Below, in pieces: positions 844 to 3,813 of a stretch of DNA of 27,381 nucleotides. The stretch lies in NCBI GenBank assembly GCA_030605865.1, contig JAUWHN010000011.1, forward strand, positions 1-27,381, read 5' to 3'. This DNA comes from Candidatus Portnoybacteria bacterium. Lineage in GTDB: Bacteria; Patescibacteriota; Minisyncoccia; RBG-13-40-8-A; JAUWHN01. Within the stretch, counting starts at the first letter, position 1, and each line of letters starts with the position of its first letter. The notes under the pieces are model-generated. The model was given only the letters and a program-made list of their open reading frames with translations. It made no database searches and was not told the origin of the DNA. The position numbers and the translations under genes are program-made.

Positions 844-880
844 AATAAGGGCATTTCTGTTGGGGTTTAAGGATTTACTT

Positions 881-909
881 TTGACATTATTTTAGGATTA
901 TGATAGGAT
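881..909 (+). promoter_or_regulatory. sigma70-type promoter, cassette 1
   Basis: TTGACA(881-886)-17 nt-TAGGAT(904-909) with extended -10 TG; SD AAGGAGG at 933-939. Confidence 0.75.
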
Positions 910-944
910 AGAACGTTGAGCTATCTTTAACAAAGGAGGGACAA

Positions 945-1280
945 TTGTCCAAGAAAAAAGAAATAGAATGGGAAAGCTGGGGTGTTCAACCTCGCGAAGA
1001 TGGCGTTAAACGAATCACAGATCCTTTTCATTGTCTTTATTGTAACTGTACCTCATCCGAGTTAACATTTCATCAGTTTATGATTGGATATTCAGCAGAT
1101 ACAAACTTTATAGTAATGGAATGTCCAGGATGTTTTGGAAAATTTTATCATCACATTGATCAAGGTAATATTAATGCAGTTACGCTTATAGTAGAAGATG
1201 GAAACAAGGACTTTTTTAAAGTTCCTGGCACATATGAAAAACTTTCAAAAATGATTGAGAGACAAAAAAAGAAGAAATGA
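945..1280 (+). CDS. small hypothetical protein, probable Zn-binding (CxxC...CxxC); cassette 1
   Basis: TTG start 5 nt after AAGGAGG; CLYC and CPGC motifs; own promoter and terminator. Confidence 0.75.
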   Translation: MSKKKEIEWESWGVQPREDGVKRITDPFHCLYCNCTSSELTFHQFMIGYSADTNFIVMECPGCFGKFYHHIDQGNINAVTLIVEDGNKDFFKVPGTYEKLSKMIERQKKKK

Positions 1281-1319
1281 GGGGTTTTTTAATTAAGCCA
1301 AAAAGACCTCTCTTTTTTT
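1279..1319 (+). terminator. rho-independent terminator, cassette 1
   Basis: GAGGGGTTTTTT pairs with AAAAAGACCTCTC (with G-U pairs), followed by T7. Confidence 0.7.
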
Positions 1320-1345
1320 ATCCCCAAAACTTTCGGAGGCGTATA

Positions 1346-1376
1346 TTATTTATTCCTCCAACTCAATAAATGGCGT
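1346..1376 (+). repeat. junction repeat copy 1 (truncated after half of the palindrome)
   Basis: TTATTTATTCCTCCAACTCAATAA (1346-1369) is identical to 1576-1599, followed by ATGGCGT. Confidence 0.85.
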
Positions 1377-1378
1377 AG

Positions 1379-1406
1379 TTGACAACTTATTCCAACTCGT
1401 TATACT
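1379..1406 (+). promoter_or_regulatory. sigma70-type promoter driving a non-coding unit
   Basis: TTGACA(1379-1384)-16 nt-TATACT(1401-1406). Confidence 0.7.
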
Positions 1407-1411
1407 AGAAG

Positions 1412-1580
1412 TAGTTAGTACCTTTTGGGAAACGCCTAAGAATTATCTGCCTCTCAATCTCATTCTAAGCTTAAGCATCTATATCTCCACTTTTAGCTTA
1501 TTGTTTAAGCGAAGGCTATGGCGTTTCCCACCTGTTCTTTTATCGAAATATTGCGCCCTTGTTTCGGCAAGGGCCTTATT
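1412..1580 (+). ncRNA. putative structured small RNA of unknown family (RNA cassette)
   Basis: Own promoter; perfect 11-bp closing stem TGGGAAACGCC(1426-1436)/GGCGTTTCCCA(1520-1530); inner stem GCTTAAGCA(1469-1477)/TGTTTAAGC(1502-1510); terminator at 1555-1574; no sizeable ORF on + strand. Confidence 0.55.
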
Positions 1581-1584
1581 TATT
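1555..1584 (+). terminator. terminator of the RNA cassette
   Basis: GCCCTTG-TTTCGG-CAAGGGC followed by a T-rich tract (CTTATTTATT). Confidence 0.65.
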
Positions 1585-1689
1585 CCTCCAACTCAATAAT
1601 AATATGGCGTCATTCAATGACGCCATATTACGTAAAAGGTGGTCAATTACTTGACAAAACATTGGGATGGGAGTATAATGAAAAGTAAG
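1576..1689 (+). repeat. junction repeat copy 2 (about 110 bp: TTATTCCTCCAAC box + 31-bp palindrome + promoter)
   Basis: Aligns to 2691-2796 at roughly 80% identity by manual alignment, with one 4-nt indel; perfect palindrome 1600-1630; promoter TTGACA(1651-1656)-17-TATAAT(1674-1679). Confidence 0.9.
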
Positions 1690-1719
1690 TCAAAAATCAA
1701 AACAAGGAGGTATTAACAA

Positions 1720-2190
1720 ATGAAAAAAACAAAATTCTGGTTGGAACTTCTGTTTGGCTTGTTGCTTCTTTTTCTCGCAATCTTTTTGGTACACGTTGGT
1801 GTAAGTGAAAAAGTAGATATCGACGACTTGGTACTCTTTTATGTTTTTGCGGCCCTCTTTTTCTTTATAGGTGTGCTTTTTCTTATGGCGGCAGGTGGTT
1901 GCATGGCGAGAGGATTTCGGAGAGATTATTTATTAGATAGGATGGAATACAGAAAAGACATTGAATCTCGTGGCAAAGGCAATGACTATGTCAGATTGTT
2001 ATTATCCGAAGCTGATAAAGAGAATAGCTTTCATCCTTCTATAAGTTTCCATTCAATCCACGGCGGTCAGCTTTTAGACAAAAACGGCCATATGTTAACG
2101 AAGCTTCCAGAAACCTTTCTTGTAAGGAAGACGGAAAAAGAAGGAAAAACCGTATATCATATTTTGCCAACCAGAACAAATGAAGCGTAG
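1720..2190 (+). CDS. hypothetical membrane protein (two N-terminal TM helices plus soluble domain); cassette 2
   Basis: SD AAGGAGGT at 1704-1711; two hydrophobic segments; own promoter and terminator. Confidence 0.75.
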   Translation: MKKTKFWLELLFGLLLLFLAIFLVHVGVSEKVDIDDLVLFYVFAALFFFIGVLFLMAAGGCMARGFRRDYLLDRMEYRKDIESRGKGNDYVRLLLSEADKENSFHPSISFHSIHGGQLLDKNGHMLTKLPETFLVRKTEKEGKTVYHILPTRTNEA

Positions 2191-2203
2191 CTTCTGAATT
2201 CTC

Positions 2204-2241
2204 GGGGGTCAGGATTTCGGTCTTGCCCCCCCCTTTTTTTT
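2204..2241 (+). terminator. rho-independent terminator, cassette 2
   Basis: GGGGG-T-CAGGAT-TTCG-GTCTTG-CCCCC followed by T8; UUCG loop. Confidence 0.8.
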
Positions 2242-2270
2242 ATCCTCAAAACTTTCAAGGGGTAAAAGTA

Positions 2271-2298
2271 TTGACAAATTATTGGATTGTGATAGAAT
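2271..2298 (+). promoter_or_regulatory. sigma70-type promoter, cassette 3
   Basis: TTGACA-16-TAGAAT with TG extension; the 26-nt segment starting GGATT matches the cassette 1 promoter at 23/26. Confidence 0.75.
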
Positions 2299-2339
2299 AG
2301 AATGTTGAGTTCTTAAATAATTTATTTTCAGGAGGAATT

Positions 2340-2621
2340 ATGACAGTAAAAGAAAAAGATAAAAAAAGTGTAGTGGTTCTTATTAACTCAGACCCTAGTG
2401 TTAAGGATAAGATTAATAACACAATCCGTGAATTTCTTAAAGAAAAAGGATTAACGACTGGGAAAGAACCCATAGATAAGCCTATTTCAAGCCCATTTAT
2501 TGTTTTTGTCCTTAAAAGAGAGCAGATTGTCTCTCTTAATTTATCTCTTTTTAAAAAAGAATTTTCTGAGAAAACAGGTTTTGTTGCTGAAGAGAATTTT
2601 ATAGTCGTAATCAGGCATTAA
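2340..2621 (+). CDS. small hypothetical protein; cassette 3
   Basis: AGGAGG at 2330-2335; promoter upstream and terminator downstream. Confidence 0.7.
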   Translation: MTVKEKDKKSVVVLINSDPSVKDKINNTIREFLKEKGLTTGKEPIDKPISSPFIVFVLKREQIVSLNLSLFKKEFSEKTGFVAEENFIVVIRH

Positions 2622-2651
2622 TAAAAATCTTAGAGATAAACCAAGTCTTTT

Positions 2652-2692
2652 TAAGCCCCTGGTTCAGGTCAACTGTACTGGGGTGCTTTTTT
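2652..2692 (+). terminator. terminator, cassette 3
   Basis: AAGCCCCTGGT...ACTGGGG-T-GCTT followed by a T-run. Confidence 0.7.
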
Positions 2693-2796
2693 ATTCCTCC
2701 AACTTAATAAATGGCGTCATTGAATGACGCTATTTTACGCAAAGAGCAGTTAATTGCTTGATAAATTATTGGTATGGGTGTAAAATGGAAAGTAAG
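2691..2796 (+). repeat. junction repeat copy 3 (box + palindrome + promoter of cassette 4)
   Basis: Homologous to 1580-1689; palindrome AAATGGCGTCATT-G-AATGACGCTATTT (2709-2735); TTGATA(2758-2763)-17-TAAAAT(2781-2786). Confidence 0.9.
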
Positions 2797-2833
2797 CGTG
2801 GTGCTTATGATTCTTTAACAAAAGGAGTAAACA

Positions 2834-3121
2834 ATGAATGAAACAGAATTTAAAGCAGGAGAACTTTACAAGATTATTGATGTAGGAGAAGGATCTATTG
2901 CTTATCATCCAAACAAAGATGATTATATTAACAAGATAGTTAAACTTATTTATTTCTTTGGCAAGTGGAAAAGCGGCTGGGTAGGATGCAATATTACTTT
3001 CCAGCAGGACTTCACATTGACAGATAAGAGAACTGGAAAAAAAATTCATCGTAAAAAAGGATGGTGGGCTTCTTTTCACGAGGTCAAATTAGAAAAAGTC
3101 CAAATCTTTCTTCTCTACTAA
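2834..3121 (+). CDS. small hypothetical protein, possibly SH3-like beta-barrel; cassette 4
   Basis: SD AAGGAG at 2822-2827; pattern FKAGELYKII...KIVKLI...W..F..VKLEKV. The fold assignment is inference only. Confidence 0.7.
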   Translation: MNETEFKAGELYKIIDVGEGSIAYHPNKDDYINKIVKLIYFFGKWKSGWVGCNITFQQDFTLTDKRTGKKIHRKKGWWASFHEVKLEKVQIFLLY

Positions 3122-3183
3122 GCCCCTAACTCATCAACCTTTATAATGGGTTGTCCAAAACAAATGAGTTAGGGTGCTTTTTT
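3119..3183 (+). terminator. terminator / structured element, cassette 4
   Basis: CCCTAACTCAT(3124-3134)/ATGAGTTAGGG(3164-3174) 11-bp stem, inner CAACC/GGTTG, then T6. Confidence 0.75.
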
Positions 3184-3195
3184 ATTTCAAAACCC

Positions 3196-3224
3196 TTGAC
3201 AAAATATTGATATGGGTGTATAAT
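3196..3224 (+). promoter_or_regulatory. sigma70 consensus promoter, cassette 5
   Basis: TTGACA-17-TATAAT; 26/30 identical to the cassette 2 promoter (1651-1680). Confidence 0.85.
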
Positions 3225-3657: not shown

Positions 3658-3685
3658 TTGACACCTTTATTTCATTTGTTATACT
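3658..3685 (+). promoter_or_regulatory. sigma70-type promoter driving a hairpin RNA
   Basis: TTGACA(3658-3663)-16-TATACT(3680-3685) with extended -10 TG. Confidence 0.7.
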
Positions 3686-3691
3686 AAATTT

Positions 3692-3765
3692 GCCGGCGGA
3701 CTAGCACCCACAAAAGACGTAGATTTGGGGTTTGTACTTCCGCCGGCTTTCGGTTTTAAAAAGCC
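3692..3765 (+). ncRNA. putative small hairpin RNA or regulatory leader, unknown family
   Basis: Perfect 9-bp GC stem GCCGGCGGA(3692-3700)/TCCGCCGGC(3739-3747) starting at the predicted +1; alternative pairing GGCTTT/AAAGCC (3745-3765). Confidence 0.45.
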
Positions 3766-3813
3766 ACCTCGCAAAATTGGTGATGAGATGGATAATATGA
3801 TAAAATATAAAAG

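What the first reader, a model, noticed from the sequence alone, without database searches (positions are those of the whole stretch)
1412..1580. Unannotated ~165-nt structured small RNA with a pyrimidine-rich, anti-SD-like apical loop
Seen: the unit has a dedicated promoter and terminator and no sizeable + strand ORF. It folds into a rod: an 11-bp perfect closing stem (1426-1436/1520-1530), a large asymmetric internal loop (possible GCCT/AGGC helix), a 9-bp inner stem (1469-1477/1502-1510) and an apical loop containing UCUCCAC. It lacks tRNA, SRP (CAGG..GGAA..AGCAG), RNase P and tmRNA hallmarks. Inference: candidates are (a) a trans-acting sRNA pairing with GGAG ribosome-binding sites, such as those of the neighbouring cassette genes, (b) a reduced 6S-like RNA polymerase decoy, or (c) an antitoxin or guide RNA.
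Basis: partly seen in the sequence, partly recalled or inferred. Interest (0 to 1): 0.72.

Follow-up and report, generated by a model that had tools for sequence, protein, structure and literature searches.

The report
Orphan small RNA gene cassette
A roughly 165-base non-coding unit with its own promoter and terminator sits in a strain-variable array of tiny gene cassettes in a 0.5-Mb, uncultured, reduced-genome bacterium. It belongs to no known RNA family, recurs only in very close relatives, and its function remains a guess.

Summary
Window 1379-1584 (+) carries a near-consensus promoter, a ~165-nt stretch with no credible ORF, an 11-bp closing stem and an intrinsic terminator. There is no Rfam, tRNA or tmRNA match.

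New evidence:
- The unit recurs as three alleles in at least five metagenome assemblies. The conserved block runs from the -35 box to the terminator, and each upstream neighbour is different.
- Promoter hexamers, closing stem (one C>U giving G.U), GCCU/AGGC helix, 3' linker and terminator are essentially invariant.
- The interior is 19% diverged, against 6% at third codon positions of a neighbouring core gene.
- Some strains and a related contig lack the unit, so it is accessory, not housekeeping.
- The genome has a proper 6S RNA elsewhere (downstream of ndk), which rejects the 6S-like reading.
- No reverse transcriptase is found in the genome. Target scans do no better than shuffled controls.

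Best reading (about 0.4): a lineage-restricted, independently transcribed regulatory sRNA. The main rival (about 0.3) is a transcribed relic of a small-membrane-protein cassette. Three alleles are too few to test covariation, and no expression data exist. The scan had already noted this stretch on the same window (e1-5289861).

The parts
1379..1406 (+). Sigma-70-type promoter: TTGACA, 16 nt, TATACT
   Evidence: 11 of 12 matches. Both hexamers are identical in all three alleles and the 3 changes lie in the spacer. In L035 the conserved block starts exactly at the -35 box.
1413..1584 (+). Predicted transcript, about 165-170 nt, from the inferred +1 to the terminator U-tract
   Evidence: +1 is inferred from the -10 position and not measured. 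CM R2 built from it finds full-length homologs in L028, L038, L040 and L035.
1413..1425 (+). Unpaired 5' leader (GUAGUUAGUACCUUUU)
   Evidence: Unpaired in the MFE. Positions 1414-1426 can pair over 13 nt (3 G.U) with the RBS 1705-1717 of the next gene. It is kept in allele B but rewritten in allele C (6 of 18 positions changed).
1426..1436 (+). P1 5' arm (U + GGGAAACGCC)
   Evidence: Pairs with 1520-1530. The 10 G/C/A core pairs are kept in 3 of 3 alleles, with one C>U change giving G.U in L035.
1437..1519 (+). Variable interior. It contains P2 (GCCU 1449-1452 / AGGC 1513-1516), the allele-specific 9-bp stem 1469-1477/1502-1510, and the small hairpin 1496-1500/1506-1510.
   Evidence: 16 differences in 84 columns against allele B, compared with 6% at third codon positions of the TIG gene. 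P2 is invariant. The 9-bp stem has 4 broken pairs in allele B. The 5-bp hairpin is kept in all alleles, with U-A, U-G and C-G at one pair. MFE topologies differ between alleles.
1520..1530 (+). P1 3' arm (GGCGUUUCCC + A)
   Evidence: Invariant in the three alleles.
1531..1554 (+). Single-stranded 3' linker (CCUGUUCUUUUAUCGAAAUAUUGC)
   Evidence: Unpaired in all folds. There are 0 changes against allele B and 1 (U1534C) against allele C.
1555..1584 (+). Intrinsic terminator hairpin (1555-1574) plus U-rich tail
   Evidence: Found by the terminator scan. The stem is invariant in the three alleles, and the tail is a cleaner U6 run in L035.
1346..1369 (+). Upstream copy of the 24-bp repeat TTATTTATTCCTCCAACTCAATAA (D2)
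   Evidence: Three copies, all in this locus (1346, 1576, 2687). It is absent upstream of the RNA in L035, so it is a flank and not part of the RNA module.
1576..1630 (+). Downstream D2 copy (1576-1599) and 31-bp palindrome (1600-1630), which follow the terminator in all three alleles
   Evidence: The palindrome carries paired changes between contigs (GGCGTCATT/AATGACGCC against GGCGTAATT/AATTACGCC in L026).

Best explanation
The unit is a genuine non-coding accessory gene. It is a self-contained module of near-consensus promoter, ~165-nt RNA and intrinsic terminator, carried in a recombining array of small cassettes in one narrow lineage of a reduced-genome (0.5 Mb) uncultured bacterium.

The RNA has a constant scaffold and a fast-changing interior:
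- Scaffold: 10-11-bp closing stem P1, 4-bp P2, an invariant 24-nt single-stranded linker, and the terminator.
- Interior: about 80 nt, pyrimidine-rich, fast-changing.

The most likely mode of action is inferred, not shown. It would be a trans-acting base-pairing sRNA whose unpaired segments (5' leader, interior loop, 3' linker) pair with purine-rich translation-initiation regions. One example is the 13-nt match of the leader to the RBS of the adjacent 156-aa membrane-protein gene.

Shown: the anatomy, non-coding character, modular conservation, accessory distribution, and absence from known families. Inferred: transcription, trans action and targets.
For: - Promoter and terminator are present. 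The fold is stable and P1 is rarer than chance.
- Three alleles exist: window; L028 = L038 = L040; L035. Full-length CM scores are 177-223 bits. Near-identical copies occur in Logan contigs of two studies.
- The conserved block begins at the -35 box and ends after the terminator, while the upstream neighbour differs each time: the 111-aa gene, a 73-aa ORF, another ORF whose stop overlaps the -35 box, or the 156-aa gene.
- Promoter hexamers, P1, P2, linker and terminator are invariant or change compatibly (C>U giving G.U), despite 19% interior divergence.
- It is not coding. There is no SD or start in the window, there are 1- and 2-nt indels between alleles, about 10 of 12 codon changes are non-synonymous including L>P and S>R in the only hydrophobic stretch, and no gene caller's product exists in the 15-billion-protein collection.
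- The leader (1414-1426) is complementary to the RBS at 1705-1717, and both sides are kept in allele B.
Against: - There are no expression data.
- Only three alleles exist, so covariation is not significant: one compensatory pair, and 328 of 500 shuffles do as well.
- The interior fold is not conserved: a rod in the window and L035, a three-way junction in allele B.
- The duplex scan gives no target better than shuffles.
- The leader-RBS match is lost in allele C although the RBS is unchanged.
- Invariance of the 3' 55 nt is only marginally below expectation at 6% background divergence (0.94^55 is about 0.03), and it could reflect a recent recombination tract.
- The unit is dispensable in some strains.
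Confidence: 0.4

Rival explanations
1. Relic cassette. The promoter and terminator are what remains of a former small-membrane-protein cassette that lost its SD and start codon. An RNA may still be made, but it does nothing.
For: - The array is made of promoter-RBS-small ORF-terminator cassettes. A related array has a 49-aa membrane-protein cassette of the same size, L044:2928-3193.
- Frame 1 through the RNA is open and reads a TM-like stretch followed by KRRLWRF.
- The interior diverges three times faster than synonymous sites next door, and its fold is not conserved.
- L036 has a positional analogue with an SD but no start.
- The unit is absent in some strains.
Against: - An 11-bp perfect long-range stem is not expected in a decayed ORF (0.3% of shuffles), and it is kept in three alleles with a wobble-compatible change.
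- Promoter hexamers and the terminator are intact in all alleles.
- The terminator lies inside the putative ORF, before its stop.
- A 0.5-Mb streamlined genome would be expected to delete dead DNA.
- The module is retained through at least four rearrangements.
Confidence: 0.3
2. Protein-binding, antitoxin or guide-type RNA. The constant scaffold (P1, linker, terminator) would bind a protein, and the hypervariable interior would give specificity, for example neutralising or directing a cassette-encoded protein.
For: - The pattern is a constant scaffold with a variable interior.
- It sits among ORFan cassettes, including a CxxC...CxxC 111-aa protein and small membrane proteins.
- It has an accessory, strain-variable distribution, typical of conflict systems.
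Against: - No constant protein neighbour exists: the 111-aa gene occurs without the RNA in L026, and the RNA occurs without it in L028 and L035.
- There are no PADLOC or PHROG hits for the cassette proteins.
- No RT is found in the genome.
- The best complementarity to a neighbouring mRNA is 13 nt with 3 G.U.
- Differences between alleles are mostly transitions with no A-specific bias, by my inspection of the alignment.
Confidence: 0.12
3. Cis-acting module. The unit would serve as the 3' UTR and terminator for the upstream cassette, and as an upstream, attenuated second promoter or leader for the downstream gene.
For: - In alleles B and C the upstream ORF has no terminator of its own and would end at the RNA's terminator.
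- In all alleles the unit is followed by D2, the palindrome, a promoter and a gene.
- The TIG gene leader at 3658-3813 has a paralogous promoter and a similar long-range stem.
Against: - In the window the upstream 111-aa gene has its own strong terminator.
- The downstream genes differ (156/158-aa against 95-aa), and each has a consensus promoter of its own.
- No riboswitch or leader family matches.
Confidence: 0.1
4. Reduced 6S-like RNA polymerase decoy, or another housekeeping RNA (SRP RNA, tmRNA) in disguise.
For: - GGGAAACGCC...GGCGUUUCCC-ACCUG resembles the 6S consensus GGG...CCC-ACCUGG.
- Rfam models find no 6S, SRP RNA or tmRNA in this genome.
Against: - A clear 6S ortholog lies downstream of ndk on contig C10. 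It aligns along its full length with the syntenic 6S hits of relatives G001 and G003.
- The candidate gets no 6S hit at E<=10, and it lacks sequence for a closing stem and the 5' half of the bubble.
- ACCUG reads ACCCG in allele C.
- There is no GNRA or AGCA SRP motif.
- No homolog is found in 40 relatives or in the 16 genomes of the order.
- It is absent from some strains, which is incompatible with an essential RNA.
Confidence: 0.03

Closest known systems
Stand-alone trans-encoded bacterial sRNAs with a Rho-independent terminator (for example the enterobacterial RybB/MicC type with a 5' seed, or the C-rich-loop RsaE/RoxS type of Firmicutes)
   Same: It has its own promoter and an intrinsic terminator with a U-tail. 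It is 100-200 nt with no ORF, carries unpaired pyrimidine-rich segments that could pair with SD regions, and is restricted to one lineage.
   Different: There is no sequence or CM similarity to any Rfam sRNA. No chaperone or target is known. The putative seeds are not the best-conserved parts, and the most conserved single-stranded part is the 3' linker. It is carried as a shuffling cassette and is missing in some strains.
6S RNA (Rfam RF00013)
   Same: The size class is similar, and a GGG...CCC stem is followed by ACCUG.
   Different: It has no closing stem or central bubble and no CM score. The genome's real 6S lies elsewhere, at the conserved ndk-linked position.
Trans-encoded type I antitoxin RNAs (IstR-1/tisB, OhsC/shoB, OrzO/zorO)
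   Same: A small RNA gene lies next to genes for small membrane proteins, in a variable region, with complementarity to the neighbour's RBS.
   Different: Complementarity is only 13 nt with 3 G.U, against about 18-21 nt in the known pairs (from my own knowledge). It is lost in allele C. The neighbouring protein (156 aa) is larger than typical type I toxins, and toxicity is unknown.
3'-UTR-derived sRNAs with an internal promoter (DapZ/MicL type)
   Same: In alleles B and C the RNA promoter abuts or overlaps the end of the upstream ORF, and the RNA terminator would also end that mRNA.
   Different: In the window the upstream gene has its own terminator. The upstream genes are unrelated to one another.

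Membership tests
6S RNA (RF00013) | Score against the family covariance model | tested here: not met
   No 6S hit on 1200-1800 at E<=10 and none in the whole genome at E<=1. Note that the model also misses this genome's true 6S, so this test alone is weak.
6S RNA (RF00013) | Rod with a closing stem, a large central bubble and an internal stem; the 5' half is about 50 nt before the GGG stem | tested here: not met
   Only about 14 nt lie between the inferred +1 (about 1413) and P1 (1426). The 6S RNAs of the relatives and of this genome have about 55 nt there.
6S RNA (RF00013) | It should be the genome's ortholog at the conserved position | tested here: not met
   The ortholog lies downstream of ndk on C10 (L022:2152-2302), syntenic with the G001 and G003 hits.
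Bacterial SRP RNA (RF00169/RF01854) | Helix 8 with a GNRA tetraloop and conserved internal loops; CM score; universal presence | tested here: not met
   No CM hit, and no such motif in the sequence. The unit is absent from strain variants and from relatives.
tRNA / tmRNA | Cloverleaf or tRNA-like domain detectable by ARAGORN or Rfam | tested here: not met
   ARAGORN finds nothing in the window, and the genome-wide tmRNA search gives tRNA-sized partial hits only.
Trans-acting base-pairing sRNA (functional kind, not a homology family) | Own promoter and intrinsic terminator, no ORF | tested here: met
Trans-acting base-pairing sRNA (functional kind, not a homology family) | Conserved accessible seed with target complementarity better than chance | tested here: inconclusive
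   The duplex scan is no better than shuffles. The 13-nt leader-RBS match is kept in allele B and lost in allele C.
Trans-acting base-pairing sRNA (functional kind, not a homology family) | A discrete transcript is expressed | not testable with these tools
   No run listed as holding the stretch is on record as RNA.
Retron msr-msd / DGR template RNA | An associated reverse transcriptase | tested here: not met
   No RVT_1 match in the genome, which is 91% complete. No second copy of the interior exists in the genome.
Type I toxin-antitoxin antitoxin RNA | Extended complementarity (about 18 nt or more) to an adjacent small-toxin mRNA | tested here: not met
   The longest match to a + strand transcript of the array is 13 nt with 3 G.U.

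The most novel reading that the evidence does not exclude
A mobile RNA-only cassette. A constant scaffold (P1, invariant linker, terminator) would carry a hypervariable ~80-nt interior that acts as a swappable specificity element (guide or antitoxin-like). It would be exchanged between strains along with ORFan cassettes at a surface-protein locus of a reduced-genome bacterium.
Probability: 0.08. Interest if true: 0.7.

Novelty: new member of a known kind. Interest (0 to 1): 0.36.

Why it matters
My searches turned up no described regulatory sRNAs for ultra-small, uncultured bacteria of this kind. A promoter-to-terminator RNA module that survives repeated cassette shuffling in a 0.5-Mb genome would be a concrete candidate to look for in metatranscriptomes. 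It would also hint that RNA-only cassettes take part in the strain-level variability of these loci. If it proves to be a relic, it instead illustrates how cassette promoters and terminators outlive their ORFs.

Tried and rejected
- **Rfam.** Gathering score on the window and E<=10 on 1200-1800 gave nothing relevant.
- **BLAST and single-sequence CM R1** against 40 relatives gave chance hits only. **CM R2** on the 16 genomes of the order gave weak hits of 16-19 bits, which I did not inspect and treat as chance.
- **21-nt pattern** in GTDB species representatives and IMG/VR gave no hits. The stem-arm pattern in JGI metagenomes gave one true homolog (L028) and two GC-rich chance matches.
- **RNA-seq evidence.** No RNA holder is listed among the runs.
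- **SRP motif regex** over the genome gave only coding-looking hits, and the C24 candidate does not fold as SRP.
- **Target prediction.** RNAduplex against 1004 start regions did no better than shuffles, and cassette RBSs ranked from 97 to 902 of 1004 across the three query segments. A first attempt timed out.
- **Coding hypothesis.** It is rejected: there is no start or SD, there are frame-breaking indels, and the changes are non-synonymous. The ORFs are also not in the 15-billion-protein collection.
- **Three-way-junction consensus (S3).** It is good for allele B but 11-20 kcal/mol worse than the MFE in the window and L035.
- **A conserved RNA partner of the 156-aa family.** Not supported in distant homologs: L044 has a small-protein cassette instead, and L036 has an unrelated non-coding unit.
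- **A 13-nt perfect match of the linker** near murB in L038 turned out to be part of an ordinary terminator.
- **PHROG and PADLOC scans** of the cassette proteins gave nothing.

Full report
**Setting.** The window is contig C29 of a 505-kb, 49-contig genome that is 91% complete and 36% G+C. Its genes suggest a reduced-genome, uncultured bacterium: a Lamin-tail-domain surface protein, a TIG-domain protein, murB, hpf, secA, secDF, a T4SS coupling-protein-like gene and aminoacyl-tRNA synthetases. Runs that hold the sequence are mainly cold-seep metagenomes. Between the LTD gene (ends 843) and the TIG gene (starts 3814) lies an array of small co-oriented cassettes. Each has its own near-consensus promoter, and they are joined by repeats.

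**Observation.**
- The promoter is TTGACA-16-TATACT at 1379-1406. The terminator is at 1555-1574.
- The MFE fold of 1412-1580 shows the 11-bp stem 1426-1436/1520-1530, GCCU/AGGC, the 9-bp stem 1469-1477/1502-1510 and a 24-nt loop with UCUCCAC. Energy is -44 kcal/mol and z = -3.3.
- A perfect stem of this length occurs in 0.3% of dinucleotide shuffles.
- The reverse strand folds as well (z = -3.4), so the strand is assigned from the promoter and terminator.
- Rfam gives nothing at gathering score, and nothing over the core at E<=10. ARAGORN gives nothing.

**Not a housekeeping RNA.**
- The genome has an RNase P RNA. Rfam models find no 6S, SRP RNA or tmRNA.
- Two same-family relatives have sub-threshold 6S hits downstream of ndk. 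The same position in this genome (C10, L022:2152-2302) holds a sequence that aligns along its full length with them. The Rfam model misses it.
- The 6S role is therefore filled elsewhere. The candidate shares only GGG...CCC-ACCUG with 6S, has about 14 nt instead of about 55 nt 5' of that stem, and reads ACCCG in one allele.
- Its absence from relatives and from strain variants (below) excludes SRP RNA or tmRNA in disguise.

**Homologs.**
- The upstream 111-aa protein has a single distant relative (56% identity) on contig L026. There its terminator and the ATCCCCAAAAC motif are followed directly by the promoter found at window 2271 and by a different gene. The RNA unit is absent.
- A stem-arm pattern scan of JGI metagenomes found L028. 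Neighbour-protein look-ups found L035, L038 and L040.
- This gives three alleles: the window type, which is also near-identical in Logan contigs of two studies; allele B (L028 = L038 = L040); and allele C (L035).
- L038 shows the same macro-synteny as the window: LTD/beta-helix proteins, then the array, then TIG and murB.

**What is conserved.**
- The conserved block starts at the -35 box and runs through the terminator. In L035 an unrelated ORF's stop codon overlaps the -35 box and no upstream D2 repeat is present.
- The upstream neighbours are the 111-aa gene (window), a 73-aa ORF (allele B), another ORF (allele C) and the 156-aa gene (run X2, joint 2231>1312).
- Downstream, every allele has the D2 repeat, the palindrome, a promoter and a gene. 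That gene is 156/158 aa in the window and L035, and 95 aa in allele B.
- Promoter hexamers, P1, P2, the 24-nt linker and the terminator are invariant, apart from a C>U (G.U) change in P1 and U1534C in L035.
- The interior (1437-1519) differs at 16 of 84 columns between the window and allele B. The neighbouring TIG gene differs at 1.8%, 1.7% and 6.1% of codon positions 1, 2 and 3.
- A 5-bp hairpin (1496-1500/1506-1510) is kept in all alleles, with U-A, U-G and C-G at one pair.
- Allele B prefers a three-way junction. That junction is 11-20 kcal/mol worse than the rod in the other two alleles.
- With three sequences, none of the covariation measures exceeds the shuffles.

**Accessory nature.** Logan contigs show three kinds of variant:
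- one skips 1324>2247, removing the RNA and the 156-aa cassette;
- one skips 844>3196, removing the whole array;
- one places the RNA cassette after the 156-aa cassette.
The junctions lie in the repeats D8 (TTTTTTTATCCYCAAAAC) and D2. The D2 repeat occurs only in this locus of the genome.

**Non-coding.**
- Frame 1 is open through the RNA and ends in D2 (FIPPTQ*). It has no start or SD in the window.
- The alleles differ by 1- and 2-nt indels near 1437.
- About 10 of 12 codon changes are non-synonymous, including L>P and S>R in the hydrophobic stretch.
- The terminator precedes the stop codon.
- No such ORF was ever called in the 15-billion-protein collection.
- The TM-like frame does fit the rival view that the unit descends from a small-membrane-protein cassette. 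Such cassettes of the same size occur in related arrays.

**Mechanism.**
- No RT is found in the genome.
- No RNA-guided enzyme gene was seen among the Pfam-scanned ORFs of the window.
- The cassette proteins are ORFans in Pfam, PHROGs and PADLOC.
- A duplex scan of the leader, interior and linker against 1004 start regions gives nothing better than shuffles.
- The most suggestive pairing is leader 1414-1426 with the RBS 1705-1717 of the adjacent 156-aa gene (13 nt, 3 G.U). Both sides are kept in allele B. In allele C the leader is rewritten while the RBS is unchanged.

My estimates:
- stand-alone regulatory sRNA acting by base pairing: about 0.4;
- transcribed relic: about 0.3;
- protein-binding, antitoxin or guide-type RNA: about 0.12;
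- cis-acting module: about 0.1;
- 6S-like or housekeeping RNA: about 0.03.

**Verdict.** The feature is real and non-coding. It belongs to no described family and is restricted to very close relatives. It is a new candidate of a familiar kind, with moderate interest.

Noticed in passing
G000 contig C10 (L022:2152-2302, + strand): A 6S RNA ortholog lies downstream of ndk. It aligns with the sub-threshold 6S hits of relatives G001 and G003 but is missed by Rfam RF00013 even at E<=0.1. DnaA-box-like TTATCCACA motifs precede its promoter here and in the relatives.
   Followed up: partly
Whole genome G000 and 40 relatives of the same class: No SRP RNA is detected with RF00169 in 0 of 41 genomes, including single-contig genomes rated 97-100% complete. 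RF01854 finds none in G000. No tmRNA is found by ARAGORN or Rfam in G000. Either these RNAs are highly divergent in this class, or the first-look filter misses them.
   Followed up: partly
window 844-3196: The cassette array is structurally polymorphic in public metagenome contigs. Forms exist that lack the whole array (844>3196), lack two cassettes (1324>2247), join 2239>2711, or reorder cassettes (2231>1312). Breakpoints fall in the repeats D8, D2 and D1.
   Followed up: partly
window 1720-2190 and 2834-3121, compared with L035 and L038: The 156-aa and 95-aa cassette genes differ from their orthologs at about equal rates at all three codon positions (roughly 5-8% each). The adjacent TIG gene shows 1.8%, 1.7% and 6.1%. 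The cassette proteins are therefore under relaxed or diversifying selection.
   Followed up: partly
window 3658-3813: The TIG gene leader has a promoter paralogous to the RNA's (TTGACA-16-TATACT, 72% identical) and a 9-bp GC stem enclosing 38 nt. It differs at only 2 of about 155 positions from L038, while the sequence just upstream is unalignable.
   Followed up: partly
L036:8530-8760: In a more distant relative (152-aa homolog, 52% identity), a different promoter-to-terminator unit of about 190 nt lies directly upstream of the homologous gene. It has an SD-like GAAGGAGG but no start codon, no Rfam match, and a fold z-score of -2.9. It is unrelated in sequence to the candidate.
   Followed up: partly
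L038:5420-5641 (= L028:1442-1663, - strand): The D2 repeat supplies the last six codons and the stop (FIPPTQ*) of a 73-aa small membrane ORF. That ORF has no terminator of its own and abuts the RNA promoter.
   Followed up: no
window 1600-1630; L026:4646-4675; L028:1187-1214: The palindrome after D2 keeps its symmetry through paired changes between contigs (GGCGTCATT/AATGACGCC, GGCGTAATT/AATTACGCC, AGCGTCATT/AATGACGCT).
   Followed up: partly
G000 C37:13810-14040 and C49:2744-2971: Two weak Y1_Tnp (PF01797) matches (26 and 21 bits) fall in 240-254-aa ORFs. The array palindrome is not found next to them, allowing up to 4 mismatches.
   Followed up: no
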